Source of the DNA: a phage
Reading direction: 5' to 3' (one strand)
Length of the DNA: 64,000 bases
Sequence record: PZ445515.1
In this document: in pieces, positions 2,707 through 26,447 of the stretch
Layout: the number at the start of each line of letters is the position of its first letter
Position numbering within the stretch: position 1 is the first letter of the stretch
Translations under genes and position numbers: made by a program
The notes under the pieces: generated by a model
Told to the model about the DNA's origin: nothing
What the model saw: the letters and a program-made list of their open reading frames with translations, nothing else
Databases searched by the model: none

Positions 2707-2902
2707 TTTTGTTCCTTTCTAAGAACGTATCATACTCAACCGTATCAACATATATAACACCATAGTCATCGGATTTATAGTCCATCTCCCACAGCTCACA
2801 GCGATAGCACCAACTACCATCCGCCCATACAAATATATCATCGGGGTGTGTATATACAGATTTAACTATGGACATATCTGTTTCCCTTGCTTCTCGACAC
2901 AT
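2693..2902 (-). CDS. hypothetical small protein
   Basis: 69 aa ORF bridging HAD and Sir2 genes with short overlaps. Confidence 0.3.
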   Translation of the reverse strand: MCREARETDMSIVKSVYTHPDDIFVWADGSWCYRCELWEMDYKSDDYGVIYVDTVEYDTFLERNKNGNK

Positions 2903-3698
2903 AAGGTCTACCCTCTAAATGAGCTTCTACACGAGCAATAAAATCAGGGTCACTGAAAGCATCTACCGCACCTTTACTCCAGTAAGGGATACCGCGTTCC
3001 TCCAGCTGGTACATCTCACTACGAGTCATACCTTGATAGCCCGGTTCCGCTGCGAGGGCACTATCATAGTAGTTAACAACCATAAGTTTCGCAGCAGTCA
3101 AACTAAGAACAGGAAATAATTCCCAGTAGAAGTTAATTACTTGGTTAGAGCAACCAACCACAATGATCATATCTTGACTGGTAATACCATCAAAAACATT
3201 ATACATTTCTGCGTATGCAGGAGCATGCTCTCCAAAGAAGATTACATTAGGTTTAACCCATTTATAATCATCTGGATCAATAGAATTGTATCCTACATCA
3301 ATAATCCGTTTATTGCTACTATTGTAGCTATCAGCTACAACAACCTCTTTTAAATATCCGTGAATATGCAGAATGTCACTATGTGGAACGCCAGCACGCT
3401 CAATAAGGTCATCAACGTTGGTAGTCAAGTTTACTATTTGACCTGGATATTGTTTATACCATTCACCAATACGCAAATGCGCAAGATTGGGTTCAACAGT
3501 TTTTAGCTCTTCACGACGCTTGTTGTAAAACATATGGGTTTTATGATAAAAATTACCACGAAAGGCATGAATATTACATACTTCTTCTAGATCATAGTCA
3601 TCCCACAATGCTTTACCACTAGCAGTATCAGTACGGAAGGCTCGTACACCACTTTCAACACTCAAACCTGCACCACTAATAATAATTAATCTACGCAT
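2862..3698 (-). CDS. Sir2-family (sirtuin-like) NAD-binding protein
   Basis: 278 aa; N-terminal GAGLSVESGVRAFR matches sirtuin GAGIS-SGIP-FR motif, later HIHG; no Zn CxxC pairs seen. Confidence 0.6.
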   Translation of the reverse strand: MRRLIIISGAGLSVESGVRAFRTDTASGKALWDDYDLEEVCNIHAFRGNFYHKTHMFYNKRREELKTVEPNLAHLRIGEWYKQYPGQIVNLTTNVDDLIERAGVPHSDILHIHGYLKEVVVADSYNSSNKRIIDVGYNSIDPDDYKWVKPNVIFFGEHAPAYAEMYNVFDGITSQDMIIVVGCSNQVINFYWELFPVLSLTAAKLMVVNYYDSALAAEPGYQGMTRSEMYQLEERGIPYWSKGAVDAFSDPDFIARVEAHLEGRPYVSRSKGNRYVHS

Positions 3699-7904: not shown

Positions 7905-10235
7905 ATGAGCCATCGCATTGAAAAAGTAATTAAACGTGACGGTACTGTAGAAGACTTTGCTCCTGAAAAAATCAATGGTTGGGCAGAGTATGGTTGCAAA
8001 ACAGTTGATGTAAGCTGGTCAGCCATTACTATGGCTGCTCAAAAAACTCTGCCTAAAGGGGTTGTAGATTCCGACACTCTGATGGATGCATTAATTAAAG
8101 CTGCTGAAAGTCTTATTAAAGATAATCCAGCATACGATGTGCCAGCAAAGGAATTACGTCTTGCGCAAATGCGTAAACGCCTTTATGACTCTTTCGAACC
8201 ACCTTCTTTACGCTTCTTCCATGACCACATGGTTAGCGTAGGTGCATGGGAAGACATGAGTGCATGGATTACCGATGAGCAATTTGAAGCTCTGAATCAG
8301 GTTATCGACCATGATCGTGACCGTCTTTTTACTAGTGGTGGGCTGAAGCAGTTCTTTGATAAGTATTCCCGTCGTAATATAGCCACTGGTGAAATTTATG
8401 AAACCCCGCAATTCGCCTACATGGGTATGGCAATGGCGATGTTATCTCAACCTAACTGGACAATTCTAGATGCAATCGACCTCTACAACGCAATGTCGCT
8501 CCACAAAATCAACGTTCCTACGCCGCCACTGGTTGGTCTGCGCTCTAGTGACCGTGGATTTGCTAGTTGCTGTCTCGTGGATTCCACTGACACGTTGGAT
8601 TCAATCGACACCGCCGAGCACATCGTCTTCAAAATGGTCGCAGCCAGAGCGGGAATCGGGTATCATCTTGAAAGCCGATCAATTGCTGATCCGGTGCGAA
8701 ATGGGGCATTCCCGCATTCCGGAAAACTGCCGTATTATCGACACATTGACCGCTCAGTAAAGGCCAATACTCAGCAAACTCGTGGTGGTTCTGCTACAGT
8801 GTCTTATCCATACTTCGACCCTGAAATCATTCAATTGATGCAGGTTAAGCAACAACGTGCTACAGATGAGAATAAAATCGATAAGATGGATTATTCTCTG
8901 AGCTTTAACAATCTTTTGTTAAAACGTTATCTTAAAAACGAAGATATTACGCTAATGTCATACTTCTATGCTCCAGAAGTTCATGAAGCGTTTTATAGTG
9001 ATGACGAGGCTAAATTTGAAGAAATCTACGTGGCAGCGGAGAAACGTGTGGCATCTCTTACAAAGATCGACCACGAAGGAAAAACAGTTCCTGCAGCTCC
9101 TAAAGTCTCTGCAAAAGAAATCCTAGATACTTGGCTACGTATCCGAATGGAAACAGGACGTATGTATGCTCACCACATTGGGGAATCTAATCGTCACGGT
9201 AACTTCCTTGATCCGATCCGTATGACAAACCTTTGTGTTGAAATTACTCAGCCTACACGCCCGTTCCATCACATTACAGAGCTGTACAAGACAAAAGAGC
9301 AGCTTGATCAAATGAAGCCGGAGGATATTGGTGAAGTATCTCTGTGTAACTTAGGTGGTGTTGTACTTGGACGCATGGAATCTCTGGCTGAGTGGGAAAA
9401 AACTTGCTACATCCTTCTGAAATTCGTTGATACAATTATTGAAATTCAGGATTATCCGTTCCCAACTATGGAATATACGGCTAAGAAACGTCGTAATGTC
9501 GGTATTGGCCTAATGAACGCAGCAGGTGCAATGGCAGCAGAAGGTCTGGCTTACGAAGGTATTGAAGCTCGTAACTGGATCCACCGTGAGGCTGAAAAAC
9601 TGTCTTACTTCCTGCATAAAGCCTCTGTACGCCTGGCTAAGGAACAGGGTGCATGTGAGTGGTTTGATCGTACTAAACCATCTAAAGGAATTCTGGTAAT
9701 CGACACGTACAAGAAAACTGTTGATGAGCTGGTATCCGTAGGTCTAGAAATGGACTGGGAGTCTCTGCGTGCAGATATTCTGAAATATGGTATGCGTAAC
9801 TCTGTTCTGACTGCTCAGATGCCGGGAGAAAGTTCTTCTGTTCTGTTAGGTGTTACTAACTCTATCGAACCACCTCGTAAGATTGTATCTATCAAGGGTA
9901 GTGCAGTAAATAAAGTAATTGCAATTGCTCCAGGTGCAACCGATTGGGAAACGTTAATGAGCTATAAATTGGCTTATGATGTAGATCGTATCGAGTGGAT
10001 CAAATGGGTAGCAACTATGCAGAAATTCTTCAGCCAGTCTGTTAGTACTAATATGTACTACGACTACACCAAGTTTGAGAATGAAATTATTCCTGGCCCA
10101 GTAGTAGTTCGTGATTTCATGACTGCTGTTAAATACGGGTGGAAAACTTGGTATTATGCTAACTTCAACACCGCAAATGGTGGTGGTGCTGGAGAAGAAG
10201 CAGCTGGTTGTGCATCAGGCGGTTGTACTATTTAA
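7905..10235 (+). CDS. nrdA: ribonucleotide reductase class I large subunit
   Basis: 776 aa from ATG 7905; N-terminal ATP-cone (VIKRDGTVEDF), C-terminal CxxGGC tail. Confidence 0.9.
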   Translation: MSHRIEKVIKRDGTVEDFAPEKINGWAEYGCKTVDVSWSAITMAAQKTLPKGVVDSDTLMDALIKAAESLIKDNPAYDVPAKELRLAQMRKRLYDSFEPPSLRFFHDHMVSVGAWEDMSAWITDEQFEALNQVIDHDRDRLFTSGGLKQFFDKYSRRNIATGEIYETPQFAYMGMAMAMLSQPNWTILDAIDLYNAMSLHKINVPTPPLVGLRSSDRGFASCCLVDSTDTLDSIDTAEHIVFKMVAARAGIGYHLESRSIADPVRNGAFPHSGKLPYYRHIDRSVKANTQQTRGGSATVSYPYFDPEIIQLMQVKQQRATDENKIDKMDYSLSFNNLLLKRYLKNEDITLMSYFYAPEVHEAFYSDDEAKFEEIYVAAEKRVASLTKIDHEGKTVPAAPKVSAKEILDTWLRIRMETGRMYAHHIGESNRHGNFLDPIRMTNLCVEITQPTRPFHHITELYKTKEQLDQMKPEDIGEVSLCNLGGVVLGRMESLAEWEKTCYILLKFVDTIIEIQDYPFPTMEYTAKKRRNVGIGLMNAAGAMAAEGLAYEGIEARNWIHREAEKLSYFLHKASVRLAKEQGACEWFDRTKPSKGILVIDTYKKTVDELVSVGLEMDWESLRADILKYGMRNSVLTAQMPGESSSVLLGVTNSIEPPRKIVSIKGSAVNKVIAIAPGATDWETLMSYKLAYDVDRIEWIKWVATMQKFFSQSVSTNMYYDYTKFENEIIPGPVVVRDFMTAVKYGWKTWYYANFNTANGGGAGEEAAGCASGGCTI

Positions 10236-10243
10236 TAAAAACA

Positions 10244-10268
10244 AGGAGATCTTCGGGTCTCCTTTTTC
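10244..10268 (+). terminator. rho-independent terminator
   Basis: Hairpin aggagatc-ttcg-ggtctcct then TTTTTC. Confidence 0.7.
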
Positions 10269-10281
10269 TTTGAAATTTTAC

Positions 10282-10310
10282 TTGCTAATCGCTACCAGAT
10301 TTGCTATAAT
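10282..10310 (+). promoter_or_regulatory. T5-type early promoter
   Basis: TTGCTA -35, 17 bp, TATAAT -10. Confidence 0.6.
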
Positions 10311-10341
10311 ATTCCTGAAATAGTGAGAAAGAGGAAAATCA

Positions 10342-11487
10342 ATGACTACTTTACTAAACCTGAATTGGGATCATACTAACGCCGACCTTTTCCTGGGAGA
10401 TTCTCTCGGTATCGCAGATTATGTACGTGTAGCACATCCAGAACTAGAACGTCTGGCACTTCTGCAGCGCTCTCAATTTTGGACTGAAACTGAAATCAGT
10501 CTGGAAGCAGATAAGAAACAATGGCCTAATCTCCCACGAGAAATTCAGGAAATTACACTCCTGAACTTAGCATGGCAAACTCAAACTGATTCCTTTATCA
10601 GTCGTGCCCCTGAAGCAGCTATTATGCCGCTTGTAAGTCGTCCAGAATTGGAAGGTATGCTCAAACAGTGGAGCTATTTTGAAGACCTGCATAGTCGTGC
10701 TTATAGCAATATTATTCGTAATGTGCTGACTGATCCAGCAGAATTTATTGATTCTGTAACCAAAAACCAAGAAGCATTCGCGCGCATCGCTGATTCTGTT
10801 GAACTATTCGATGAACTGTACCAGTTAGGTCAGTATTTCATCGCAGTACGCGATCATCGTGGCGACAATACATATCCAGAAACTGAGTTCCCTGAAGTTA
10901 AACGTGAAACTCAGGCTAAACTATTAGACGCTTACTTTGCGATCTATGGTCTGGAAGCAATGCAGTTTTACGCATCCTTTGCATGTACCTTTGCATTAGC
11001 AGAGAACGATATTCTGCAAGGTATTGCTAAAAATCTGCAATTAATCGCTAAAGATGAAGCTCTGCACACTCAGATGTCCAAAGCAATCATCCAGATTATG
11101 TTTCAGCAATTTGACAAAGATCTGGTAGATGAAGCAGTGGCTAAAGCACCAGCACAGCTCCTGAAAACTCTGAAAACTGAAATTGAATGGGGTCATTTCA
11201 TTTTCAAAGGTCGTAGTCTGATTGGCTTGAATGCAGAACTTCTAGAAGAATATCTGTATTTTGTGGGACGTAATGCATTTATGCACATCGGTGTAGAATG
11301 GCCTAGTCATTTACCAGTAATCACCAAAAACCCTATTCCGTGGATTATGAACTGGTTGGATACTACTTCTCTACAGCCTGCTCCACAAGAAATCCAGATT
11401 GGTGCAGCCTACCGTGTAGGTCAGGTAACTGAGACCTCTACTGATACTCTGAAAGATCTGGGTAATGAATTTGGAGATTTCTTATGA
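10342..11487 (+). CDS. nrdB: ribonucleotide reductase class I small subunit
   Basis: 381 aa; R2-like diiron motifs incl. EALHTQ; follows nrdA. Confidence 0.9.
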   Translation: MTTLLNLNWDHTNADLFLGDSLGIADYVRVAHPELERLALLQRSQFWTETEISLEADKKQWPNLPREIQEITLLNLAWQTQTDSFISRAPEAAIMPLVSRPELEGMLKQWSYFEDLHSRAYSNIIRNVLTDPAEFIDSVTKNQEAFARIADSVELFDELYQLGQYFIAVRDHRGDNTYPETEFPEVKRETQAKLLDAYFAIYGLEAMQFYASFACTFALAENDILQGIAKNLQLIAKDEALHTQMSKAIIQIMFQQFDKDLVDEAVAKAPAQLLKTLKTEIEWGHFIFKGRSLIGLNAELLEEYLYFVGRNAFMHIGVEWPSHLPVITKNPIPWIMNWLDTTSLQPAPQEIQIGAAYRVGQVTETSTDTLKDLGNEFGDFL

Positions 11488-12965: not shown

Positions 12966-13169
12966 ATGGGACTCTTTAGAAAGAAAGTTTATTTAACAGA
13001 AAGCCAAGAGCACAAACTTCTTACTCTATCAGAACATTATCATTTACCCTATGACTACTTTGTAGATAGAGCAATAGAGGAACTCTTAGATAGGGAATTA
13101 GCGGCTATAAAACCTAACCCTCCCATCCCACCAAAAACCAGAAGTGTAGCAGAAGGTGAAAAGCCATGA
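12966..13169 (+). CDS. hypothetical protein
   Basis: 67 aa ORF behind promoter. Confidence 0.5.
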   Translation: MGLFRKKVYLTESQEHKLLTLSEHYHLPYDYFVDRAIEELLDRELAAIKPNPPIPPKTRSVAEGEKP

Positions 13170-13447
13170 TTTCAGCCAAAGAAGCCCAAGAACTTGCAGG
13201 ATTAACAGAAGTACCCGCTTTTCTAAAGTTTATAGAAGAAAAGATTGTAGAAGCTGCTAAGTCTGGAAATACAGAAGTAATTATTCGAGATAATCCTTAC
13301 GCTAGGTGGCTATATAATCCTAGAGAAATGCCAGGAGCCGCTAAATCGGTACTAAAAACCTTATCGGATAAGGGGTATCATCTCTCTCAATACTACCGAG
13401 AAGCCGCCTTTGTAGACATGGGTCTTAAAATTAGTTGGGAGGTATAA
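13166..13447 (+). CDS. hypothetical protein
   Basis: 93 aa ORF, ATGA overlap with upstream gene. Confidence 0.5.
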   Translation: MISAKEAQELAGLTEVPAFLKFIEEKIVEAAKSGNTEVIIRDNPYARWLYNPREMPGAAKSVLKTLSDKGYHLSQYYREAAFVDMGLKISWEV

Positions 13448-13923
13448 TGTCGGTTTTCCACATTTACACAGATGGTGCTTGTAAGTCTAATCCAGGTCCA
13501 GGTGCTTGGGGTTTTATTGTCTATGATGATAACGACGATCGTTTAGGTTCTAAATCTGGTTATAATCCTAAAACTACAAATAATGAGATGGAACTCACAG
13601 CTATCGTAGAAGCCCTACGTTGGTCTGTTAAAAAAGATAATAGACCAATTGCTATCTATACTGACTCTGCTTATTGCAAAAATGGCATGGAAAGTTGGAT
13701 GTTTTCTTGGCAAAGGAAAGGCTGGAAGAAAGCAGATGGTGAAGTTCCTCTTAATCTAGAACTTTGGCAGGAAGCATTTAAATTAACACAGCAGTATATC
13801 AACTTTCATAATACTAACCCTACCTTTATTAAGGTTAAAGGACATTCTGGTATTAGTGGTAATGAGGCTGTAGACGCCTTATGTAATACAGTTATTACTG
13901 AAGCTGAAATGGCTGAGATGTGA
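13447..13923 (+). CDS. rnh: ribonuclease H
   Basis: 158 aa from ATG 13447; IYTDGACKSNPGPGAWG and downstream E/D/H/D motifs of RNase HI. Confidence 0.85.
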   Translation: MSVFHIYTDGACKSNPGPGAWGFIVYDDNDDRLGSKSGYNPKTTNNEMELTAIVEALRWSVKKDNRPIAIYTDSAYCKNGMESWMFSWQRKGWKKADGEVPLNLELWQEAFKLTQQYINFHNTNPTFIKVKGHSGISGNEAVDALCNTVITEAEMAEM

Positions 13924-13944: not shown

Positions 13945-13973
13945 TTGCTTAAAGCCCTATAATTTAGTATAAT
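13945..13973 (+). promoter_or_regulatory. T5-type early promoter
   Basis: TTGCTT -35, 17 bp, TATAAT -10. Confidence 0.55.
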
Positions 13974-14000: not shown

Positions 14001-14285
14001 ATGCGGATCTATAACTCAAATTCATTAGGATTTAAACCATTGAGAAAACGTGCACAATCACCTCGTCAAATAAGAAAGGCTAATATTGGCGAGCCAGAAA
14101 CACGTCTTCCACCTCCTCCAGAACAACGTTTAGTTTATTTGGACGAAGAATTAGCGGAACGCGAAAGAAAAGCTCAAGAAGAGATTGAGCGTAAGAAAAT
14201 GTGTACTGCTCCAGCCTACTCCAAAGGGGCTTATCAGTATATCTATACAGCCGAGGAGGCTAAAGATGCGGGGCGTAAAAAATGA
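14001..14285 (+). CDS. hypothetical basic protein
   Basis: 94 aa ORF. Confidence 0.5.
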   Translation: MRIYNSNSLGFKPLRKRAQSPRQIRKANIGEPETRLPPPPEQRLVYLDEELAERERKAQEEIERKKMCTAPAYSKGAYQYIYTAEEAKDAGRKK

Positions 14286-14731
14286 AGATTACTGAATTTA
14301 AAGGTACTTATAGTTTCTTATCTAACTTTTATTTATCACCAATTACTTTCGAATATCTAAATGAGATATGGCATGCTGATACTGTAGAACATGCTTTTCA
14401 GGCTATGAAATCCGACCAAAAAGATGATGTAGCTCATGTACTCCGCTCCCTAAATGCAGGAGTTGCTAAACGTAGAGGACGTAAATTAACCCTACGCTCT
14501 GACTGGGATAAAGTAAAAGATGATGTAATGCTAGAGCTTTTACGATTAAAGTTTGCAATTCCTGATTTAAGAGATAAACTGTTAGCAACAGAAAATGCAA
14601 CTTTGATCGAAGGAAATACCTGGGGAGATACATATTGGGGTGTTTGCCGAGGCATCGGGGATAATACTTTAGGAGTCCTTTTGATGCAAGTAAGGTCTGA
14701 AATTAAAAGAAGCTTACAGTTAATAAATTAA
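14282..14731 (+). CDS. NADAR / YbiA-family protein (N-glycosidase-like, possible ADP-ribosyl hydrolase)
   Basis: 149 aa; motifs LSNFY, EHAFQAMK, EGNTWGDTYWG, GDNTLGVLLMQVR match YbiA/NADAR core. Confidence 0.8.
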   Translation: MKITEFKGTYSFLSNFYLSPITFEYLNEIWHADTVEHAFQAMKSDQKDDVAHVLRSLNAGVAKRRGRKLTLRSDWDKVKDDVMLELLRLKFAIPDLRDKLLATENATLIEGNTWGDTYWGVCRGIGDNTLGVLLMQVRSEIKRSLQLIN

Positions 14732-14738
14732 AAATTCA

Positions 14739-14768
14739 TTTGCTAAACGCTTCAAATTCTCGTATAAT
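14739..14768 (+). promoter_or_regulatory. T5-type early promoter
   Basis: TTGCTA -35, 18 bp, TATAAT -10. Confidence 0.6.
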
Positions 14769-14806: not shown

Positions 14807-15322
14807 ATGGCTAAGCAGAAAAACGCAAAAACTCAAGCAGCCCCGGCAGTTAAAACTTTCCCGCAGACCGAGGCTAATCGCAAAGCTCGTCTGGAACGTC
14901 ACCTGCGTAAGCATCCTACCGATGCTCAGGCTGCGCAAGCATTGAATAATCCGGCTCCGATTCGTAAGAAGCCTAAAGCTAAAAATGCCACCCGTAAATC
15001 CTACAAAATGGTTATGTATGTAGAAAATTACGGCCACAAATCTGTCCCAGTATCTTTGAGTTTCAACGCTGGGGCTGAATTGTTCTCTCGTAATGGTATG
15101 TCTATGAAAGACTACGAGAAGGCAGTTAACCAGAAGCGTAAACCAACAGCAGATGTATTGCGCGATACTCGTGGACAGTTTGGTTCTGTTAAGCCAAATA
15201 TCTTTGGCGTAGAGTATAGTAAAGATAATGTTCGCGCTCTGTGTTACGGTGTAGGCATTAAGTTCACTGGTGATTCTGCTCGTAAATCTGCTAAACCAGC
15301 TCGCAAGCGTAAAGCGAAGTAA
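14807..15322 (+). CDS. hypothetical highly basic protein (possible nucleic-acid binding)
   Basis: 171 aa, K/R-rich N- and C-termini. Confidence 0.55.
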   Translation: MAKQKNAKTQAAPAVKTFPQTEANRKARLERHLRKHPTDAQAAQALNNPAPIRKKPKAKNATRKSYKMVMYVENYGHKSVPVSLSFNAGAELFSRNGMSMKDYEKAVNQKRKPTADVLRDTRGQFGSVKPNIFGVEYSKDNVRALCYGVGIKFTGDSARKSAKPARKRKAK

Positions 15323-15387: not shown

Positions 15388-15603
15388 ATGTTCTCTAAGA
15401 AACCACGTTCTGTTACTGAAATCGTTGCTTCCTTTACCACTATCACTGATGAGCTTCAAGCTCGTATTGAGGCTGATCAAAAAATCGCAGCTGATATTCA
15501 GAAACAGCAGGAAGAACTCGCTTTAAAGTTGGCTGAAACCAACAAGAGTGAAAAATCTGCCCAAACTATTATGGAAAATATCCTTAAACTGCTGGGCAAG
15601 TGA
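15388..15603 (+). CDS. hypothetical protein
   Basis: 71 aa coiled-coil-like ORF. Confidence 0.5.
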   Translation: MFSKKPRSVTEIVASFTTITDELQARIEADQKIAADIQKQQEELALKLAETNKSEKSAQTIMENILKLLGK

Positions 15604-15909: not shown

Positions 15910-16611
15910 ATGAAAGTAAAACCATTTGGTATGCTAGATATTGAATCTCTGGGAACTCCAGGAGATTGTGGTACTACTCATATCGCAATGCCTTCTTTCG
16001 CTTTTGTGGCTATGCATGGAATTGATAAAGACCCTGATCTAGTATTTGTTACTTTGGATGTACAAGATCAGCTTAATTCTGGTGCTAAAGTTACAGCATC
16101 TACTCTAGCATTCTGGATGGATCAAGCTAAAAATAGCCCGTCTGCTATTCACATTATGGAAGCTATGAAGGAACGTAATCCAAAACTGATTGCCTTCCAA
16201 AATGGTAAACATCATTGCACTAATAAATTTGGCTCAAACTATGCTGCCTTCTCTATGGCTCAAAATATTATGGAGTTGGCTCTAGGCGAAAATGCTTTGT
16301 ATTATGGTAATGGCCCAGAGTTTGATATGACTATCTACTCTGCAAACACATTCCATGCTGGAACCAATGAAGAGGTAGTTCCGTGGAAATTCTGGAATTT
16401 GGGCAATGTTCGATCTCTTCGTAATCTCTGGATGCAAGCTGATTATAGTTACAAAGATCTAGAGGCTGAAGGTATTAGCTGGGCAAAAGCTAAAATGGAG
16501 AAGATGGACACCATTCGTTATGGGATCTATCCGGTTAAGCATGATCCTGCATTTGATGCCTTAGTTGAAAGCTATTGTGTTGCAGCTATGATCGAAAAAA
16601 TGAAAATTTGA
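15910..16611 (+). CDS. putative DEDD-type 3'-5' exonuclease-like protein
   Basis: 233 aa; MLDIESLG (exo I-like) and HDPAFDA (H-x4-D exo III-like); assignment tentative. Confidence 0.35.
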   Translation: MKVKPFGMLDIESLGTPGDCGTTHIAMPSFAFVAMHGIDKDPDLVFVTLDVQDQLNSGAKVTASTLAFWMDQAKNSPSAIHIMEAMKERNPKLIAFQNGKHHCTNKFGSNYAAFSMAQNIMELALGENALYYGNGPEFDMTIYSANTFHAGTNEEVVPWKFWNLGNVRSLRNLWMQADYSYKDLEAEGISWAKAKMEKMDTIRYGIYPVKHDPAFDALVESYCVAAMIEKMKI

Positions 16612-19704: not shown

Positions 19705-19776
19705 GCCGTCCTAGTATAATTGGTATTATCAAGCCGTAACTGGTGGAAGATGTAGGTTCGAATCCTACGGTCGGTA
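19705..19776 (+). ncRNA. tRNA-like element (no encoded CCA, poor D/anticodon arms)
   Basis: T-arm gtagg-TTCGAAT-cctac and 6/7 acceptor pairing, but no 3' CCA unlike all other tRNAs here. Confidence 0.3.
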
Positions 19777-20278
19777 AGAACTGGATAACTGATGCTTTTA
19801 ACATAAAAGCTTCCGAGGTTAGTTGCGCACTGCCTAAACCACGCGGTAGTTGGTTCCAGACTAACCAACCAGTCTGCTGAATAGTTTTATTACGATTTAA
19901 CTATGTCCAGGCTAAAGAAGAACTTTAGAAGGTATTCTAGGATAGTGAAGTTCTTTCTCCATATCGGAGTAGTTTTTCAAGCTATCCACAAAGTGGGAAA
20001 TGCTGACATGAGAGATGTCACTAATGGTGCACAATAGCACAGGTAATTCGCGATAACTCCTGTTGAGTAGCAGCAAAAGGTGGGAAGTCATGACCCCAAG
20101 CCTAACCGAGTCCTCAATATACCGCAGGACATAACCACTAAGTCACCCTGACTTAAACTGGAAAATAATAGACGTTACTGTATTTTGTCTTGAAATACTT
20201 AATGAGTGAGACTTATGACTCTCCCGGTATCGTCTGTATTTTTAAGAGTTTTTACGAGAGTTCTTAAAAATACTTAAA

Positions 20279-20350
20279 CGGGGTGTAGTCTAAGGGAGAG
20301 GCAGGAGTCTTCTAAATTCCTTTATGCAGGTTCGAATCCTGTCACCTCGG
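20279..20350 (+). tRNA. tRNA-Arg (anticodon TCT)
   Basis: Acceptor cggggtg/cacctcg, anticodon loop CTTCTAA, T-loop TTCGAAT, CCA encoded. Confidence 0.8.
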
Positions 20351-20387
20351 CCAATTTTATTAACTGTAACTAAAACAAAGGAAATAT

Positions 20388-21335
20388 ATGTTTGCTACTA
20401 AAAATATGAAAGAACTGACTTCTGAGCAGAAAGTAATTCGTACTATTAAACGTTGGGGTATTGGTGCTGTAGTTGGTTTAGCAGGTTTAATCCTAGCTTT
20501 TAATTCATATACTATTGTTTCTGATGGTACGGTTAAAACCCAAACATTCCTGGGTAAAGTAGACCCTAATCCAGTATTGCCGGGCTTCCATCTTGTAAAC
20601 CCGTTTGCATCTTTCGATACTTTTAGTACAAAAGATATTGCTGTAAAATTAGATAAACTTCAGGTTCCTAGCCAGGATAAGTTTAAATCCACTGTTGACC
20701 TGACTGTTATGTTGCAGTTTGATGGTTCTAAAGCACCGATTAACCGTATTAACGCAGGTACTCAGGATCAGGCACTAGACAAGTATGTAACTGAAAAATT
20801 ACTGTCTACTATTCGTGAGTTTGGTAAGTCTGTACCTAAAGCACAAGATTTATTTGATGCTAAAATTCAGGCTCAATTGCAAACTGCAATTCAACAGGAA
20901 GTTGAAGAGTATGCGCGCCCATATGGTTACACAGTTAAGCAGGTATTCCTTCAGGATATTACCTTGCCGCCAGTAATCATGGAACAGGTACAGAATACCA
21001 AAGTTCGTGAAGAGCAAGTTAATGCTGCGAAAGCTGAACTTGCTCGCGTTGAACAGGAAGCACAGCAAAAAGTTAAACAAGCAGAAGCAGATCGTGAAGC
21101 TCGTAACAACCAAGCTATTGCTAATGAACGTGACGCAGATGCTAAACTGTACGCAGCTAAGAAAGAAGCTGAAGCTAACGCCGCATTGCAACGTACCATT
21201 ACTCCTGAAATGATTCGTTGGAAACAACTGGAAGTTGAAATGATCCGTGCTCAGAAGTATCAAGGTGGTGTACCTCAGACTGTGGTAGGTACTGGCTACG
21301 ATGGTCAAATGATCATGGATATGCGTAACAAGTAA
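20388..21335 (+). CDS. SPFH/band-7 (prohibitin/HflC-like) membrane protein
   Basis: 315 aa; N-terminal TM helix, SPFH-like core, C-terminal A/E/Q-rich coiled coil. Confidence 0.55.
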   Translation: MFATKNMKELTSEQKVIRTIKRWGIGAVVGLAGLILAFNSYTIVSDGTVKTQTFLGKVDPNPVLPGFHLVNPFASFDTFSTKDIAVKLDKLQVPSQDKFKSTVDLTVMLQFDGSKAPINRINAGTQDQALDKYVTEKLLSTIREFGKSVPKAQDLFDAKIQAQLQTAIQQEVEEYARPYGYTVKQVFLQDITLPPVIMEQVQNTKVREEQVNAAKAELARVEQEAQQKVKQAEADREARNNQAIANERDADAKLYAAKKEAEANAALQRTITPEMIRWKQLEVEMIRAQKYQGGVPQTVVGTGYDGQMIMDMRNK

Positions 21336-21358
21336 TAGTTACACGTAATCTTCGAACC

Positions 21359-21394
21359 AAGCCCGCGTTTCCTACGAGAGCGCGGGCTTTTCTG
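21359..21394 (+). terminator. rho-independent terminator
   Basis: Hairpin gcccgcg...cgcgggc followed by TTTTCTG. Confidence 0.7.
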
Positions 21395-21411
21395 TATTTA
21401 AGGCAAAAGAA

Positions 21412-21447
21412 AAAGCCCCTTACCTTTCGGCAGGGGCTTTTGTTTTT
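21412..21447 (+). terminator. bidirectional rho-independent terminator
   Basis: Hairpin agcccct...aggggct flanked by A-run upstream and T-run downstream; between convergent genes. Confidence 0.65.
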
Positions 21448-21654
21448 GGTTTAGAACCATACTCTCGGTGTACAGCAACCACCCATACGGGAGGCCAATC
21501 TTGACTGAAAATCTACTCTAGGGGGCAGGATAAGAGTAGGCTTAAAGGCAAAGGGATTGAACGCCGGTATTTGCGTAAACATTGCTGGAGAGCAACAACG
21601 TGCTACAGGCACTGGGCAGCACGAAACAGATTTTCTGCAACACATATTTCCTCC

Positions 21655-22071
21655 TTAGGAGTTACTACCCCCATTTTGAGCTTTTGCAACTTGGCTTTGG
21701 CAGAAGCTATTAAACTTACCCATAAGTGATACAAGCTGTTTCCCATCCTCTGTCTTTGCGAAGTCTTCGAAAAGGGCTAGTACTGCCTGTCCTTCCGCAG
21801 AAACCTGCGGTTGTTGGGTTTGTTGCTGAACTTGCTGCTGAGGCACCTGTTGCTGCATTTGTTGAGGCATTTGCGACTGCCCGCTCATTTGCTGCATCAT
21901 TTGCATAGGACTCACACTTCCAGGGTTTTGCTGGAGTTGTTGCTGCATCTGTTGCGCTTCTGCTAAACGCTGTTGCAACTGTTGTAAGTAGGGGTTATCC
22001 AGACCCGGAATGGGCTGCTGGGAGCCCATACTTTGATTAAGTCCGTTATTTACAAAACCATATTTACTCAT
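21655..22071 (-). CDS. glutamine-rich low-complexity protein
   Basis: 138 aa; central Q-rich tract QQMQQQLQQ...QQVQQQTQQPQ; opposite strand to neighbours. Confidence 0.5.
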   Translation of the reverse strand: MSKYGFVNNGLNQSMGSQQPIPGLDNPYLQQLQQRLAEAQQMQQQLQQNPGSVSPMQMMQQMSGQSQMPQQMQQQVPQQQVQQQTQQPQVSAEGQAVLALFEDFAKTEDGKQLVSLMGKFNSFCQSQVAKAQNGGSNS

Positions 22072-22092
22072 AATGGGCTCCTCCCCTTAATA

Positions 22093-23082
22093 TTAAGCCG
22101 GCAGTTTAGCCTGCAGACCAGCCAGAGTCTGAGTGATAGCACCAAGACTTAAAGCGATTTGATTAATTACCTGACCGTTAGCACCGCTACCCGCAGCGAT
22201 TGCTTCACGTAGGCGACATGCGTCTAACTCATCCTGGATACGCGCAGTAGTTACACCAGCGATCGCAGTCTGAAGTTCACAGCAACATTCAGCGATCTGA
22301 CGTTCCAGAGAGTTCTGGTTAGCACACATCTGAGCCTGAACAGCGGCAAACTGGTTATTAGTTTGTAAAGTCTGCTGGAAAGCGATCTGTGCAGAATCAA
22401 ACTTATCTTGTGCACGAGCTATCTGGTTAGCTGCGAAAGATTGATCAATCTGGCGAGAAAGATCGAACTGACCCTGAATAACGTTGCGAGTTTCCTGGCA
22501 GATCTGATTAGACAGATTAGCACCTGTACCGTAGATCGTAGTTAGTACAGACTGAGTATCACGGCTCTGGTTTTGGGTTGTCTGGCTAAAACCATTGTTA
22601 ACTGCGCTTAAAACAGCTCCAGTACCCTGGTTAGCCTCTGTACGAGTAGTGTTGATAGCTGCTAGAATACTAGCGGTATCTTGGTTCTGAAGTACTGCAT
22701 CAACTGCGGTACCTTCACCAACTACACCACGTCCACCGAATCCACCGAAACCACCGAATCCGCCGGTTAATAGAGCACCGATTAGGATAGCTCCGAATAG
22801 TCCCATACCTTCACCACCGAAAGCACCTGCGTTTGCTGGGTAACCACCCAGTAGGCCAGGGAAGCCACTAGTGAATACGTTTACTGGTTCTTGCATTTTA
22901 TGTTTTCCATATTTATGACAATGTTCATCATCGTCATCTTCTTCTTCATCATCGTGTTCACGATGTTTTTCTTCGTAGGCTCTGACCTTCTCCCACTTTT
23001 TCTTATCTGATTCCTCGTGACGGTGCAGTTCTGCTGCAACGCTAGCGACGGTCTCAGGACTCTTAGCTACTTCTTCTGTCAT
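22093..23082 (-). CDS. low-complexity protein (acidic tract, Gly-rich repeat, Q/N/T/A-rich domain)
   Basis: Start at internal ATG 23082 with AGGAGG RBS; EEEDDDDEH, GGFGGFGGFGG, then long Q/N/A-rich region. Confidence 0.5.
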   Translation of the reverse strand: MTEEVAKSPETVASVAAELHRHEESDKKKWEKVRAYEEKHREHDDEEEDDDDEHCHKYGKHKMQEPVNVFTSGFPGLLGGYPANAGAFGGEGMGLFGAILIGALLTGGFGGFGGFGGRGVVGEGTAVDAVLQNQDTASILAAINTTRTEANQGTGAVLSAVNNGFSQTTQNQSRDTQSVLTTIYGTGANLSNQICQETRNVIQGQFDLSRQIDQSFAANQIARAQDKFDSAQIAFQQTLQTNNQFAAVQAQMCANQNSLERQIAECCCELQTAIAGVTTARIQDELDACRLREAIAAGSGANGQVINQIALSLGAITQTLAGLQAKLPA

Positions 23083-23289
23083 ATTTTGACACCTCCTAGT
23101 ATATAGAAAATGTGTGTCTCTTTGATCACTCATCCATAACATATACTTTACACTACCCCAGCGAAAATGTCAAGGGGTCTTTAAAAATTGCCCCCGGATT
23201 TTTAGTGGGGTCACAAATTTTGGTCCTCCCCACTTATCTGCTACCCTTAAGTGCCCTATGATTTTCCTCTAAAAAGTTAAAAAATTTGA

Positions 23290-23318
23290 TTGCTTGAATG
23301 CTAAATTCTCTGTATAAT
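23290..23318 (+). promoter_or_regulatory. T5-type early promoter
   Basis: TTGCTT -35, 17 bp, TATAAT -10. Confidence 0.6.
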
Positions 23319-23348
23319 ATATCTATAAATTTGAGAGAGGAACCAAAT

Positions 23349-23867
23349 ATGAATGTTGATGAGCTAACACAGCACCTCTTATCCAGAGGATTTGATACAG
23401 ATAAATATCATTGCTGGTTAAGTCCGGAAGGATGGCTAACAGTCCCGTTGTATGACTTCTCCGGGATGTTGCGAGGCTATCAGACGTATAATCCTTCTGC
23501 TCCAAAAGGTCATGGTAAGTGTCCCTTTGAAGCTAAATATTTTACTTATTCTACTACCCAGTGTGTATGGGGACTAGAAACTCTCAATGGAGATGAAAAA
23601 GTAGTATTGATCGCTGAATCTGTATTTAAGGCAGTTGCGCTACATAACGCTGGTTATCCAGCCCTGGCAATGTTAGGTTCTTCTCCAGGAAAAGCGTTAT
23701 TAAAGCAACTGAAATTATTACCTTTTAAATTGGTAGCTGTCGGAGACAACGATCCTGCGGGTGAAAAATTTGCTAGAAAATTAAACGGCTTTGTTTCTCC
23801 CGTAGATGTGGATGAGATGTCTACCGAAAACTTGAAAAATTTTCTTGCTATGAAGCTAAATTTCTAA
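23349..23867 (+). CDS. hypothetical protein with Toprim-like motif
   Basis: 172 aa from ATG 23349; VVLIAESVFKAV...VGDNDPAGEKFA resembles Toprim fold; tentative. Confidence 0.35.
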   Translation: MNVDELTQHLLSRGFDTDKYHCWLSPEGWLTVPLYDFSGMLRGYQTYNPSAPKGHGKCPFEAKYFTYSTTQCVWGLETLNGDEKVVLIAESVFKAVALHNAGYPALAMLGSSPGKALLKQLKLLPFKLVAVGDNDPAGEKFARKLNGFVSPVDVDEMSTENLKNFLAMKLNF

Positions 23868-23873
23868 TATAAT
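23845..23873 (+). promoter_or_regulatory. T5-type promoter overlapping CDS end, driving tRNA cluster
   Basis: TTGCTA -35, 17 bp, TATAAT -10. Confidence 0.5.
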
Positions 23874-23888
23874 ATATCTTATAAATTC

Positions 23889-23974
23889 GGAAGAATAGCA
23901 TAACGGTATTGCAGCAGATTGCTAATCTGTCGGTTTGAAATATAGCCTTGTGGGTTCGATTCCCACTTCTTCCG
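23889..23974 (+). tRNA. tRNA-Ser (anticodon GCT)
   Basis: Acceptor ggaagaa/ttcttcc, anticodon loop TTGCTAA, long variable arm, T-loop TTCGATT, CCA encoded. Confidence 0.8.
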
Positions 23975-23983
23975 CCAAATTCT

Positions 23984-24058
23984 GGTTCTCAAGCTCATAT
24001 GGTATGAGCACCCGGCTCATAACCGGAAGGTACGTAGGTTCGAATCCTCGGGGAGCCA
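23984..24058 (+). tRNA. tRNA-Met/Ile2 (anticodon CAT)
   Basis: Acceptor ggttctc/gggagcc, D-stem gctc/gagc, anticodon loop CTCATAA, CCA encoded; T-stem imperfect. Confidence 0.7.
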
Positions 24059-24081
24059 CCAACTTAATTAGGGGATTACAA

Positions 24082-24270
24082 GTGGAATTATACATAGTTT
24101 ATGTTGTATTTATTCAAGATAGAGAATACCCGGATGAATATAAAAAAGGATATAGGTTAGCCAGAGCTACCTCTGAGGCCCAAGCTATGGATAAAGTGGC
24201 AGATTATATGATTATGGTAGAAAACGTATACTATATCGACTCCCTTGAAGCCTCAAAAGTAATTGACTAA
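24082..24270 (+). CDS. hypothetical small protein
   Basis: GTG start after AGGGGA; longer ORF-track version would overlap two tRNAs. Confidence 0.35.
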   Translation: MELYIVYVVFIQDREYPDEYKKGYRLARATSEAQAMDKVADYMIMVENVYYIDSLEASKVID

Positions 24271-24279
24271 GGAGACTAT

Positions 24280-24465
24280 ATGTCCAAGTTTCAAGAACTC
24301 AAGCAAGAGCTAGAAGAATGTGCCTGCCCTGAGTGTAGGGGAATTGGTGAAAGTTCTGATGCAGAAGCAGGAGATACTTTTTGCAATATCTGGATTTGTT
24401 CAAATTGCAACGGTACAGGTATTAATCCTAACTGCGGTGTTTCCCTAGATATTGAACGAGGATAA
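24280..24465 (+). CDS. small Cys-rich (zinc-ribbon-like) protein
   Basis: 61 aa; CPEC...CSNC pairs. Confidence 0.5.
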   Translation: MSKFQELKQELEECACPECRGIGESSDAEAGDTFCNIWICSNCNGTGINPNCGVSLDIERG

Positions 24466-24566
24466 TACCTGTGAAACTAAAAGATTATTATATTGGTTGG
24501 TTTGTGGGACTAGTAGTAGGATTTTCACTAGGCTATAATATGTATCAACTAATAAACTGATTACAT

Positions 24567-24640
24567 GGGGGTGTAATCGAATTGGTATAGGTACTGGACT
24601 TAAAATTCAGGTTTTGTGGGTTCGAATCCCACCACCCCTA
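24567..24640 (+). tRNA. tRNA with anticodon TAA (Leu-type anticodon, short variable arm)
   Basis: Acceptor gggggtg/cacccct, anticodon stem ctgga/ttcag loop CTTAAAA, T-loop TTCGAAT, CCA encoded. Confidence 0.65.
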
Positions 24641-24658
24641 CCAACTTAAGGAAATAAG

Positions 24659-24826
24659 ATGTATAGACATCCACCTCCGCCAACACGTCGTTCTAGAGAA
24701 GTTATCCTCATGGAATTGACGAAAAACTTCAAGGCAACTCTTGAAGATAGAGATCTAGGCACAGATGAAGACATTGATTTTATTTGTAGACTATTAAACA
24801 TGAAACTGGAGAAACAACATGGCTAA
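24659..24826 (+). CDS. hypothetical small protein
   Basis: 55 aa ORF right after tRNA; stop overlaps next ATG. Confidence 0.4.
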   Translation: MYRHPPPPTRRSREVILMELTKNFKATLEDRDLGTDEDIDFICRLLNMKLEKQHG

Positions 24827-25025
24827 TCCCGAAATTACCGCACAACGTTTCATGCTTAAAGGCATGATTGCTGAGGCAGGTATGACTCAAGAGGTTGCAG
24901 ACTTTCATAAGCAATTTCTTGATATTATAACCCTAGCTAAAGAGACAGGAGAAAGAGAACACGGAGCAGCAATTATGGCTATATCTCTTATTAGCCTAGA
25001 CTTAGCTGAAGAATCTGGAGTTTAG
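24819..25025 (+). CDS. hypothetical protein
   Basis: 68 aa ORF. Confidence 0.5.
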   Translation: MANPEITAQRFMLKGMIAEAGMTQEVADFHKQFLDIITLAKETGEREHGAAIMAISLISLDLAEESGV

Positions 25026-25055
25026 CTCCTCCAAACAGAATTTTTAAAAATGTAC

Positions 25056-25085
25056 TTGCCTTTTGCTTTAAATTTCTGGTATAAT
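25056..25085 (+). promoter_or_regulatory. T5-type early promoter
   Basis: TTGCCT -35, 18 bp, TATAAT -10. Confidence 0.5.
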
Positions 25086-25115
25086 AGTTATATAAATTGA
25101 TGAAGGAGTTAACGA

Positions 25116-25391
25116 ATGCAAAATCGTGTTATAGCAACTGGTATTGAAAGTGCAATCTGTAAATCCTGGGAAGGCTGGGAAGGTGAGATTGAATGGCTTT
25201 ATTTCTACGATGTAGAACTTCTGCCGGAAGTTAAAGCTAAATGTATTGAAGCTGGCATGGCTCCAGATGCAAAAGCTGATATTGATATTTCAATGTCTGA
25301 ACTTAAAGGTCGTGTAATTACTGTTAGTGATGAGGGCGAAGAAGTTTTCGAACTTCCATTCTCCTTAACTGTCGCTCCTAAGTTCGACTAA
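25116..25391 (+). CDS. hypothetical acidic protein
   Basis: 91 aa ORF. Confidence 0.5.
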   Translation: MQNRVIATGIESAICKSWEGWEGEIEWLYFYDVELLPEVKAKCIEAGMAPDAKADIDISMSELKGRVITVSDEGEEVFELPFSLTVAPKFD

Positions 25392-25427
25392 CTAATACAG
25401 CACTGAGCAAGTTCTTTAAAATTTGAC

Positions 25428-25456
25428 TTGCTCAGTGCCATAAAACTTGATATAAT
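25428..25456 (+). promoter_or_regulatory. T5-type early promoter
   Basis: TTGACT/TTGCTC -35, 17 bp, TATAAT -10. Confidence 0.55.
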
Positions 25457-25519
25457 AGTTATCTAATTTGGAAACATATCTAAAAGTGTTTAAACTAGTA
25501 TTTGAATACTTTTAAATAT

Positions 25520-25607
25520 GTTGGATTAGTATCGTAGAGGTAGCGAAGCAGACTGTAAATCTGCCGACTCGGAAGGGTCTCGGGTGGTTCGACTCCATCA
25601 TCCAACA
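25520..25607 (+). tRNA. tRNA-Tyr (anticodon GTA)
   Basis: Acceptor gttggat/atccaac, anticodon stem gcaga/tctgc loop CTGTAAA, long variable arm, T-loop TTCGACT, CCA encoded. Confidence 0.8.
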
Positions 25608-25617
25608 CCAAATTTAA

Positions 25618-25691
25618 GTCCTGTTAGACAAACTGGTAAAGTCACTACCCTTTCAAGGTAGGATTTGCGGGTTCGATCCCCGCACAGGACG
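25618..25691 (+). tRNA. tRNA-Glu (anticodon TTC)
   Basis: Acceptor gtcctgt/acaggac, anticodon stem ctacc/ggtag loop CTTTCAA, T-loop TTCGATC, CCA encoded. Confidence 0.8.
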
Positions 25692-25699
25692 CCAATTCC

Positions 25700-25776
25700 T
25701 GCATTCCTAGAGTGTTACTGGACAGCATGTCGGTCTCCAAAACCGTACGGTCTAGGTTCGAGTCCTAGTAGGTTTG
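25700..25776 (+). tRNA. tRNA-like, probable tRNA-Trp (anticodon CCA); 5' boundary uncertain
   Basis: Anticodon arm cggtCTCCAAAaccg like E. coli tRNA-Trp, T-arm ctagg-TTCGAGT-cctag, CCA encoded; acceptor pairing not found. Confidence 0.4.
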
Positions 25777-25785
25777 CCAAAATTT

Positions 25786-25857
25786 GCACCTTTAGCTGAG
25801 ATGGATTAGCGCTTGCCTGAAGAGCTTGAGAGGTTCGTTCGATACGAACAGGGTGCA
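25786..25857 (+). tRNA. tRNA (anticodon probably GAA, Phe)
   Basis: Acceptor gcacctt/agggtgc, T-arm gttcg-TTCGATA-cgaac, CCA encoded; anticodon stem imperfect. Confidence 0.6.
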
Positions 25858-26142
25858 CCAAATTGAGGGAGCTGCTGATGCACCCTGAAAACTTCTTTAT
25901 TTACTGCGCGGATAAGTTGCTGAAACGTAGAATTAACAAAGTCTATCATTATCGTGCTAGTCAACAGCCTTATGTATACGCTTTTGACGGTGATCACATT
26001 CCATTAGAACAATTATCCTGTGATTACATGATATTGAAGAACTTTGACGAGACAAAGATCTCAAGCGTTCATAATCGACAGAATCCCTTAACGTGGAAAT
26101 ATAAGAAGAAAAAGAAAGGCATCAAATTTTTAAAAAATGTAG

Positions 26143-26171
26143 TTGCTTAGTTTCCAAAAGTTCTGTATAAT
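26143..26171 (+). promoter_or_regulatory. T5-type early promoter
   Basis: TTGCTT -35, 17 bp, TATAAT -10. Confidence 0.6.
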
Positions 26172-26219
26172 AATTACATAAATTGAACTGGAGAAGCAAC
26201 ATGACAGAACAAGATAAAT

Positions 26220-26292: not shown

Positions 26293-26297
26293 CCAAT

Positions 26298-26438: not shown

Positions 26439-26447
26439 ATAAATTTA

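What the first reader, a model, noticed from the sequence alone, without database searches (positions are those of the whole stretch)
14282..14731. Phage-encoded NADAR/YbiA-family protein: candidate ADP-ribosylation counter-defence
The 149-aa product carries the YbiA/NADAR core motifs (LSNFY, EHAFQAMK, EGNTWGDTYWG, GDNTLGVLLMQVR). NADAR enzymes are established ADP-ribose-processing hydrolases, some of which reverse guanine ADP-ribosylation by DarT-type toxins. In a lytic phage early region, next to rnh and nucleotide-metabolism genes, the simplest hypothesis is an anti-DarTG function or removal of ADP-ribose adducts from phage DNA.
Basis: partly seen in the sequence, partly recalled or inferred. 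Interest (0 to 1): 0.65.

Follow-up and report, generated by a model that had tools for sequence, protein, structure and literature searches.

The report
Known phage anti-DarTG1 NADAR enzyme (AdfN)

Summary
The ORF at 14282-14731 (+) is real. It passes the Pfam NADAR cut-off (78.8 bits against 35.1). It folds with pLDDT 97.3 into a NADAR fold (TM 0.82 to YbiA, 0.75 to ADP-ribose-bound Phytophthora NADAR). It keeps all catalytic and ligand residues (E36, K43, E110, D116, W119).

The window is a T5-like phage, 100% identical to T5_ev212. The protein is 148/149 identical to bas32_0066 of phage IrisVonRoten (Bas32). That protein is AdfN-Bas32 of Johannesman et al., Nat Commun 2025. Expressed from a plasmid, it neutralises DarT1 toxicity and restores RB69, T5 and Bas25 to full titre on DarTG1 hosts. 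It does not counter DarTG2.

The gene is accessory. It is present in 96 of 427 T5-like phage records and absent from T5 itself, which is DarTG1-sensitive.

So the anti-DarT hypothesis is supported, specifically against DarTG1, but it is already published. "YbiA-family" is only loosely right, because the protein falls below NCBIfam's YbiA-equivalog cut-off.

Still untested for this allele: a knockout in the native phage, catalytic mutants, in-vitro substrate range.

The parts
14282..14731 (+). adfN-type gene: stand-alone NADAR domain protein of 149 aa (an allele of AdfN-Bas32)
   Evidence: ORF. Pfam NADAR 78.8 bits against 35.1. 148/149 identical to bas32_0066. AF2 pLDDT 97.3. Foldseek hits YbiA 2b3w at TM 0.82 and 8bau at TM 0.75. 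Catalytic E36, K43, E110, D116 and W119 are invariant in 33 homologues.
14001..14285 (+). Upstream 94-aa ORF (homologue of T5.090, phrog_4593, function unknown). Its TGA stop overlaps the NADAR ATG (ATGA at 14282-14285), so the two are probably translationally coupled. Its last ~15 codons differ from T5.090 because the indel boundary lies inside them.
   Evidence: The gene is present in T5, which lacks NADAR, so it is a neighbour rather than a NADAR-specific partner.
13945..13973 (+). Likely promoter of the two-gene unit: TTGCTT, 17 nt, TATAAT. It is conserved with the promoter annotated upstream of T5.090 in NC_005859.
   Evidence: Sequence. Alignment to T5 and Bas32. T5 regulatory feature 46337-46411. 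Function is inferred from the T5 annotation and was not tested here. The consensus scan did not list it, because the -35 hexamer matches only 3 of 6.
14240..14733 (.). Presence/absence segment relative to phage T5. About 495 bp here replaces about 50 bp in T5. It comprises the variant 3' end of the upstream ORF plus the whole NADAR gene.
   Evidence: Three-way alignment of window, T5 and Bas32. NADAR-negative relatives stop matching at query position 805, which is window 14239. The locus span is bimodal, 1888 bp against about 1435 bp.
14740..14768 (+). Downstream promoter (TTGCTA, 17 nt, TATAAT), identical to T5 promoter P-H207. It drives the next gene (DUF7022, 14807-15322) and marks the 3' limit of the NADAR unit.
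   Evidence: Scan hit matching 10 of 12. Identical in T5 and Bas32. T5 annotation 'promoter P-H 207'.

Best explanation
The gene encodes an orphan, antitoxin-like NADAR ADP-ribosylglycohydrolase, an allele of AdfN-Bas32. It is transcribed with the early replication and nucleotide-metabolism genes. When the phage infects a host carrying the DarTG1 toxin-antitoxin defence, the freed DarT1 toxin ADP-ribosylates guanines in DNA and blocks phage replication. The phage enzyme binds the ADP-ribose through K43, R67, W75, D116 and W119. It cleaves the ribose-guanine N-glycosidic bond using E36 and E110, which restores unmodified DNA so replication can proceed. It does not act on thymine-ADP-ribose made by DarT2. 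Shown elsewhere for a 99.3%-identical protein: DarT1 neutralisation, phage rescue and lack of DarTG2 activity. Shown here: identity, family, fold, catalytic residues and accessory distribution. Inferred: that rescue is catalytic for this allele, that the gene is expressed early, and that it is needed in its native phage.
For: 148/149 identity to AdfN-Bas32, and the differing position 9 is hypervariable. Published experiments on AdfN-Bas32: it neutralises DarT1 in uninfected cells, restores RB69, T5 and Bas25 to full titre on DarTG1, and has no effect on DarTG2 (PMC11825919; preprint). Pfam NADAR is well above threshold. The AF2 model has pLDDT 97.3 and pTM 0.90. Its best structural matches are YbiA and the ADP-ribose-bound Phytophthora NADAR. 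Residues equivalent to P. nicotianae E43, K50, E125, D130 and W133, which Schuller et al. 2023 define as catalytic or ligand-binding, are E36, K43, E110, D116 and W119 here. They are invariant in 33 homologues of 48-60% identity. T5 lacks the gene and is reported DarTG1-sensitive, and AdfN-Bas32 in trans rescues it. There are 10 synonymous and 1 non-synonymous differences from the Bas32 allele. No ART or DarT-like gene is adjacent, so it is an orphan.
Against: As far as the text shows, no knockout in Bas32 or any T5-like phage has been reported. No in-vitro assay or catalytic mutant of AdfN-Bas32 has been reported either, so catalysis and native necessity are inferred. E. coli YbiA, the nearest solved structure, hydrolyses G-ADPr in vitro but does not protect against DarT1 in vivo. 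Family membership alone would therefore not have predicted protection. The case rests on the near-identity to the tested protein.
Confidence: 0.9

Rival explanations
1. It is a broader nucleic-acid de-ADP-ribosylase. DarT1-made G-ADPr on DNA would be only one substrate. The protein would also remove ADP-ribose from cytosine and/or from RNA, and so protect against ADP-ribosylating defences or toxins other than DarTG1.
For: Position 110 is Glu, as in the YbiA and classical NADAR classes. It is not His as in T4 AdfN, nor the shifted Asp of DarG1-type NADARs. In vitro, classical NADAR and YbiA-class enzymes removed C-ADPr from DNA and RNA, whereas DarG1s and T4 NADAR did not (PMC12945103). Structurally the model is close to YbiA and 8bau and far from the DarT1-linked 8bat, at TM 0.52. 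Unlike AdfN-T4, AdfN-Bas32 works on unmodified DNA and in uninfected cells.
Against: No data exist for this protein on C-ADPr or RNA substrates. No cytosine-directed anti-phage ART is known in enterobacteria, and the 2026 paper lists the physiological role of C-ADPr as unknown. This idea extends the main explanation rather than replacing it.
Confidence: 0.3
2. It neutralises DarT1 by binding and blocking the toxin as a stoichiometric antitoxin mimic, not by reversing the DNA modification.
For: Phage anti-DarT factors that act by direct interaction exist, for example AdfB of ICP1 and AdfA. No catalytic mutant of AdfN-Bas32 is reported.
Against: Every catalytic and ADP-ribose-binding residue is invariant across distant homologues. 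That would not be expected for a mere binder of one E. coli toxin. The closest homologues occur in very diverse bacteria, archaea and phages, which argues against co-evolution with a specific DarT1 surface. For T4 AdfN, enzymatic activity was stated to be required.
Confidence: 0.05
3. It is a YbiA-type housekeeping N-glycosidase that destroys reactive riboflavin-pathway intermediates. It would be an auxiliary metabolic gene sitting among the phage's nucleotide-metabolism genes.
For: YbiA is the best PDB hit by sequence (E=3e-15) and by structure (TM 0.82). TIGR02464, 'riboflavin biosynthesis intermediates N-glycosidase', hits at E=2.9e-18. Many GenBank records label the gene YbiA or GTP cyclohydrolase II.
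Against: The TIGR02464 score of 66.6 is below its equivalog cut-off of 73.7. The published phylogeny places AdfN-Bas32 outside the YbiA clade. E. coli YbiA does not protect against DarT1 in vivo, whereas AdfN-Bas32 does. There are no riboflavin genes in the neighbourhood. The gene is dispensable and patchy, present in 22% of relatives, as expected for counter-defence.
Confidence: 0.03

Closest known systems
AdfN-Bas32 (NADAR of Escherichia phages IrisVonRoten/Bas32 and HildyBeyeler/Bas33; Johannesman, Awasthi, Carlson & LeRoux, Nat Commun 2025;16:1598)
   Same: 148 of 149 residues. Same length. Same locus and flanking genes (rnh, T5.090-like, NADAR, DUF7022). Same genus, Tequintavirus.
   Different: One substitution (T9 here, A9 in Bas32) at a hypervariable position, plus ten synonymous changes. 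Different phage isolate.
AdfN-T4 (gp30.3 of phage T4), the founding anti-DarT factor NADAR
   Same: Stand-alone NADAR of about 150 aa in a lytic coliphage. Shares E36, K43 and D116 equivalents. Counters DarTG1 and not DarTG2.
   Different: Only 23% identical. T4 has His where this protein has Glu110, and Leu where this has Trp119. AdfN-T4 works only in the T-even context with hydroxymethylated DNA and cannot neutralise DarT1 in uninfected cells, whereas the Bas32 type can. The two were acquired independently.
E. coli YbiA (PDB 2B3W), riboflavin-intermediate N-glycosidase / NADAR
   Same: Nearest solved structure (TM 0.82, 37-42% identity). Same Glu/Lys/Glu/Asp/Trp active-site set.
   Different: Below the NCBIfam YbiA-equivalog cut-off. 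YbiA is a chromosomal gene in a LexA-controlled operon and does not rescue cells from DarT1.
DarG1, the DarT1-associated NADAR antitoxin (E. coli C7; G. lovleyi, PDB 8BAT)
   Same: Same superfamily and the same reaction, guanine-ADPr hydrolysis. AdfN-Bas32 can stand in for the antitoxin against DarT1.
   Different: No adjacent DarT gene. No N-terminal extension. It uses the canonical Glu rather than the shifted Asp (D171) of DarG1. Structural similarity is weak, at TM 0.52 and E=1.4.

Membership tests
NADAR superfamily (Pfam PF08719 / DUF1768) | Profile match above the curated gathering score over the full domain | tested here: met
   78.8 bits against 35.1, E=7.2e-22, profile positions 9-163 of 163.
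NADAR superfamily (Pfam PF08719 / DUF1768) | NADAR fold | tested here: met
   AF2 pLDDT 97.3, pTM 0.90. The only significant PDB matches are YbiA 2b3w (TM 0.82, E=5e-9) and P. nicotianae NADAR with ADP-ribose, 8bau (TM 0.75, E=5e-6).
NADAR superfamily (Pfam PF08719 / DUF1768) | Catalytic and ADP-ribose-binding residues (P. nicotianae E43, K50, E125, D130, W133; Schuller 2023) | tested here: met
   E36, K43, E110, D116 and W119 align to them and are invariant in 33 homologues. Residue roles are from PMC11543638.
AdfN (phage orphan NADAR that counters DarTG1) | Phage-encoded stand-alone NADAR with no cognate ART toxin next to it | tested here: met
   The window is 100% identical to a Tequintavirus genome. 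Neighbours are a T5.090-like ORF and DUF7022, and no ART domain is present.
AdfN (phage orphan NADAR that counters DarTG1) | Neutralises DarT1 and restores phage growth on DarTG1 hosts | not testable with these tools
   Shown experimentally for the 99.3%-identical AdfN-Bas32 (identity). Not measured for this exact allele or in its native phage.
AdfN (phage orphan NADAR that counters DarTG1) | Guanine-ADPr DNA glycohydrolase activity required for function | not testable with these tools
   Demonstrated for AdfN-T4. Only inferred for AdfN-Bas32, for which no in-vitro assay or mutant is reported.
YbiA equivalog (NCBIfam TIGR02464, riboflavin biosynthesis intermediates N-glycosidase) | Score at or above the curated equivalog cut-off | tested here: not met
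   66.6 bits against a cut-off of 73.7. The published tree also places it outside the YbiA clade.
T4-type 'phage NADAR' class | Histidine replacing the conserved catalytic glutamate | tested here: not met
   Glu110 here. gp30.3 has His at the aligned column, and the two share 23% identity.
DarG1-type antitoxin NADAR | Operon with DarT1, N-terminal extension, Asp (C7 D171) supplying the catalytic carboxylate | tested here: not met
   No DarT neighbour. The domain starts at residue 9 of a 149-aa protein. It has the canonical Glu110. TM is only 0.52 to 8bat.

The most novel reading that the evidence does not exclude
The Bas32-type AdfN keeps the YbiA/classical-NADAR glutamate and an active site close to 8bau and YbiA. 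It may therefore be a generalist that also removes ADP-ribose from cytosine and from RNA. That would give T5-like phages protection against ADP-ribosylating defences beyond DarTG1. Divergent NADARs have been inserted independently on either side of the same small gene in Demerecviridae (this window and UTK0009), which would then reflect recurrent selection for such a generalist eraser.
Probability: 0.25. Interest if true: 0.45.

Novelty: already known. Interest (0 to 1): 0.15.

Why it matters
The result confirms that a first-pass reader can correctly infer a counter-defence function from motifs and context alone. Biologically it adds little. The protein is essentially the published AdfN-Bas32, and the gene is already labelled NADAR, YbiA or even 'antitoxin-like enzyme' in GenBank records. 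There are three modest practical gains. First, the analysis gives a clean definition of the roughly 495-bp presence/absence segment. It also shows that the gene is in about 22% of sequenced T5-like phages, which predicts which therapeutic or typing phages of this group will plate on DarTG1-positive E. coli and Salmonella. Second, many database labels for this gene are wrong ('GTP cyclohydrolase II', 'swarming motility protein'). Third, the native-phage knockout, catalytic mutants and substrate range of this AdfN type remain untested.

Tried and rejected
(1) Guessing BASEL accession numbers for Bas32 (MZ501082, MZ501083) returned Vequintavirus genomes Bas55 and Bas53. Bas32 was then found by name (IrisVonRoten) through the literature and a megablast listing.

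(2) I checked whether the rnh-DUF7022 interval is a multi-cargo anti-defence hot-spot. Sampling 60 of 442 records showed only two states in Tequintavirus, NADAR present or absent. In a few Salmonella phages an HNH endonuclease lies nearby. So I dropped the hot-spot idea.

(3) PADLOC and NCBIfam defence models gave only weak sub-threshold NADAR-domain hits: PDC-M42C at 28 bits, and DS32_2 at 44.8 bits against a cut-off of 240. There is no support for a defence-system role.

(4) An Rfam gathering scan of the whole window found only tRNAs and nothing in or near the gene. The antisense ORFs inside the gene (73 and 55 aa) have no support and I treat them as chance.

(5) On the published 'archaeal-like' origin: a scan of GTDB species representatives found the closest cellular relatives, at no more than 53% identity, in many bacterial phyla. 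A few archaea appear at 41-45%. No specific donor lineage can be named.

(6) The HIDEN-SEQ preprint was checked for T5-like adfN data. It covers only T4 adfN and adfM.

(7) The HMMER alignment to 8bau was locally shifted around E36. I re-aligned with MAFFT to obtain the correct E36/K43 register.

Full report
OBSERVATION. The opposite strand in the same frame is full of stop codons. The four quoted motifs are all present: LSNFY at 13-17, EHAFQAMK at 36-43, EGNTWGDTYWG at 110-120 and GDNTLGVLLMQVR at 126-138. The stated context is also right. RNase H (13447-13923), thymidylate synthase, DHFR and ribonucleotide reductase subunits lie just upstream on the same strand.

WHAT THE WINDOW IS. The 3 kb around the gene is 100% identical to Escherichia phage T5_ev212 (LR597659, Tequintavirus, Demerecviridae) and 97-99.9% identical to many T5-like coliphages and Salmonella phages. 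The window covers the early region and the tRNA cluster of such a phage.

FAMILY, FOLD, ACTIVE SITE. Pfam NADAR (PF08719) matches at 78.8 bits against a gathering score of 35.1, over essentially the whole profile. PHROG 1017 matches at E=1e-44.

An AlphaFold2 model built on 33 homologues of 48-60% identity has mean pLDDT 97.3 and pTM 0.90. Against the PDB, only two matches are significant. They are E. coli YbiA (2B3W, TM 0.82) and the Phytophthora nicotianae NADAR bound to ADP-ribose (8BAU, TM 0.75). The DarT1-linked Geobacter NADAR (8BAT) is much further away (TM 0.52, E=1.4).

Schuller et al. 2023 define E43, K50, E125, D130 and W133 of the Phytophthora enzyme, plus R79, W89 and R93, as catalytic or ADP-ribose-binding. 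In a MAFFT alignment these correspond to E36, K43, E110, D116, W119, R67, W75 and K79 here. E36, K43, E110, D116 and W119 are invariant in all 33 homologues.

Position 110 is the class-defining residue. It is Glu here, as in YbiA and classical NADARs. T4 gp30.3 (AdfN-T4) has His at that position.

IDENTITY WITH A CHARACTERISED PROTEIN. Johannesman et al. (bioRxiv 2024; Nat Commun 2025;16:1598) report that the T5 relatives Bas32 and Bas33 encode identical NADARs, which they name AdfN-Bas32. Bas32 is phage IrisVonRoten, GenBank MZ501075. Its gene bas32_0066 sits in the same position, rnh, small ORF, NADAR, DUF7022, and its product is 148/149 identical to the window's protein.

The only difference is T9 here versus A9 in Bas32. 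That position takes nine different residues across 33 homologues. At the DNA level the two alleles differ by ten synonymous changes and one non-synonymous change, which indicates purifying selection.

The published experiments on AdfN-Bas32 show three things. Expression neutralises DarT1 toxicity in uninfected E. coli. Ectopic expression restores RB69, T5 and Bas25 to full titre on a DarTG1 host. It does not help T5 against DarTG2, which modifies thymine.

I found no report of a knockout in Bas32, an in-vitro assay, or catalytic mutants for this AdfN type. The enzymatic mechanism for this allele therefore rests on the conserved active site and on the work with AdfN-T4 and other NADARs.

ANATOMY OF THE LOCUS. 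Phage T5 itself (NC_005859) lacks the gene. There T5.090 is followed directly by promoter P-H207 and T5.089 (DUF7022).

A three-way alignment shows that T5 and the window are collinear up to about window 14239. They diverge over the last ~15 codons of the T5.090 homologue and re-join at about 14734, just before the P-H207-type promoter (14740-14768). So about 495 bp here replaces about 50 bp in T5.

The NADAR start codon overlaps the stop of the upstream ORF (ATGA, 14282-14285). The nearest upstream promoter is TTGCTT-17-TATAAT at 13945-13973. It is conserved with a promoter annotated in T5. The gene is therefore most likely the second cistron of a short early operon, but this is an inference.

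T5's lack of the gene fits its reported sensitivity to DarTG1 and its rescue by AdfN-Bas32 in trans.

DISTRIBUTION. The gene, at 90% nucleotide identity or more, is in 96 phage records (49 Salmonella, 38 Escherichia). The adjacent DUF7022 gene is in 427 records, which gives about 22%. Sampling 60 of 442 records that match the rnh-DUF7022 interval shows only two states, about 1888 bp with NADAR and about 1435 bp without.

Salmonella phage UTK0009 carries a NADAR only 60% identical, inserted on the other side of the T5.090-like ORF: rnh, NADAR, T5.090-like, DUF7022. Its T5.090-like protein has the T5-type C-terminus. This suggests a second, independent acquisition in the family.

More distant homologues of 30-50% identity occur in about 370 other phage records from Streptomyces, Vibrio, Stenotrophomonas, Bacillus and other hosts. 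The nearest cellular relatives, at no more than 53% identity, are spread across many bacterial phyla with a few archaea. No donor lineage can be named.

RIVALS.

(a) YbiA-like riboflavin N-glycosidase. YbiA is the nearest solved structure. However, the NCBIfam equivalog model scores 66.6 against a cut-off of 73.7. YbiA does not protect against DarT1 in vivo, whereas AdfN-Bas32 does. The gene is also patchy and sits in a phage. I consider this unlikely (0.03).

(b) Toxin binder rather than enzyme. AdfB of ICP1 provides a precedent. Against it, the catalytic residues are invariant across very distant homologues. Unlikely (0.05).

(c) Broader eraser. YbiA and classical NADAR classes remove cytidine-ADPr from DNA and RNA in vitro, whereas DarG1s and T4 NADAR do not. 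This protein has the Glu-type active site and is structurally close to those classes. This is possible as an extension of the main function (about 0.25-0.3) but untested.

COMPARISON AND NOVELTY. The feature is a member of the NADAR superfamily, with profile, fold and residues all tested and met. It is, for practical purposes, the published AdfN-Bas32. It is not a YbiA equivalog, not a T4-type His NADAR and not a DarG1-type antitoxin; the defining features of each were tested and not met.

Its interpretation is supported, with the refinement that the target is DarTG1 (guanine) and not DarTG2. One GenBank record already annotates the gene as 'antitoxin-like enzyme' (PV844355.1).

VERDICT. Already known, low interest (0.15). 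The only open points are the native-phage knockout, catalytic mutants and the substrate range of this AdfN type.

Noticed in passing
L007 4001-4450 (Salmonella phage vB_SenS_UTK0009, OQ359889) compared with window 14001-14731: A second NADAR allele, only 60% identical, sits in another Demerecviridae phage on the opposite side of the same small T5.090-like gene: rnh, NADAR, T5.090-like there, and rnh, T5.090-like, NADAR here. This suggests two independent acquisitions within a few hundred bases.
   Followed up: partly
window 1370-3698 (- strand): A Sir2-family protein (2865-3698, PF02146, 87.7 bits), a HAD_SAK_2 'Swiss Army Knife RNA repair' HAD domain protein (2203-2706) and two tandem DUF7415 proteins (1370-1759, 1772-2197). 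These are homologues of T5.102-T5.107. They are NAD-linked or repair-type genes of unknown role in the same early region as the NADAR.
   Followed up: no
window 12966-13447 and 15388-15603: Three small ORFs are absent from the T5 reference genome. Two (67 aa phrog_17630, 93 aa phrog_5321) lie between thy and rnh. The third (71 aa) lies between DUF7022 and the T5.088 homologue. The 71-aa ORF is present in Bas32 and UTK0009, and it is labelled 'tail length tape-measure protein' in several records, which is implausible for a 71-aa early-region product.
   Followed up: partly
window 10235-10342: T5 carries an HNH homing endonuclease (hegH, T5.095) between nrdA and nrdB. Here the two genes are separated by only 107 bp, so that endonuclease is absent.
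   Followed up: no
window 19705-31629: tRNA cluster. ARAGORN finds 21 and Rfam 22, and the union is 23. Rfam alone finds 19705-19776 and 23984-24058. ARAGORN alone finds tRNA-Ala at 28652-28730.
   Followed up: no
window 14282-14731 and 15910-16611 (public records LR597659, ON185585, NC_028840 and others): Database names for the NADAR gene are inconsistent and mostly misleading: 'GTP cyclohydrolase II', 'swarming motility protein YbiA', 'DUF1768'. The Rv2179c-like 3'-5' exonuclease at 15910-16611 is labelled 'metallopeptidase' in several records.
   Followed up: partly
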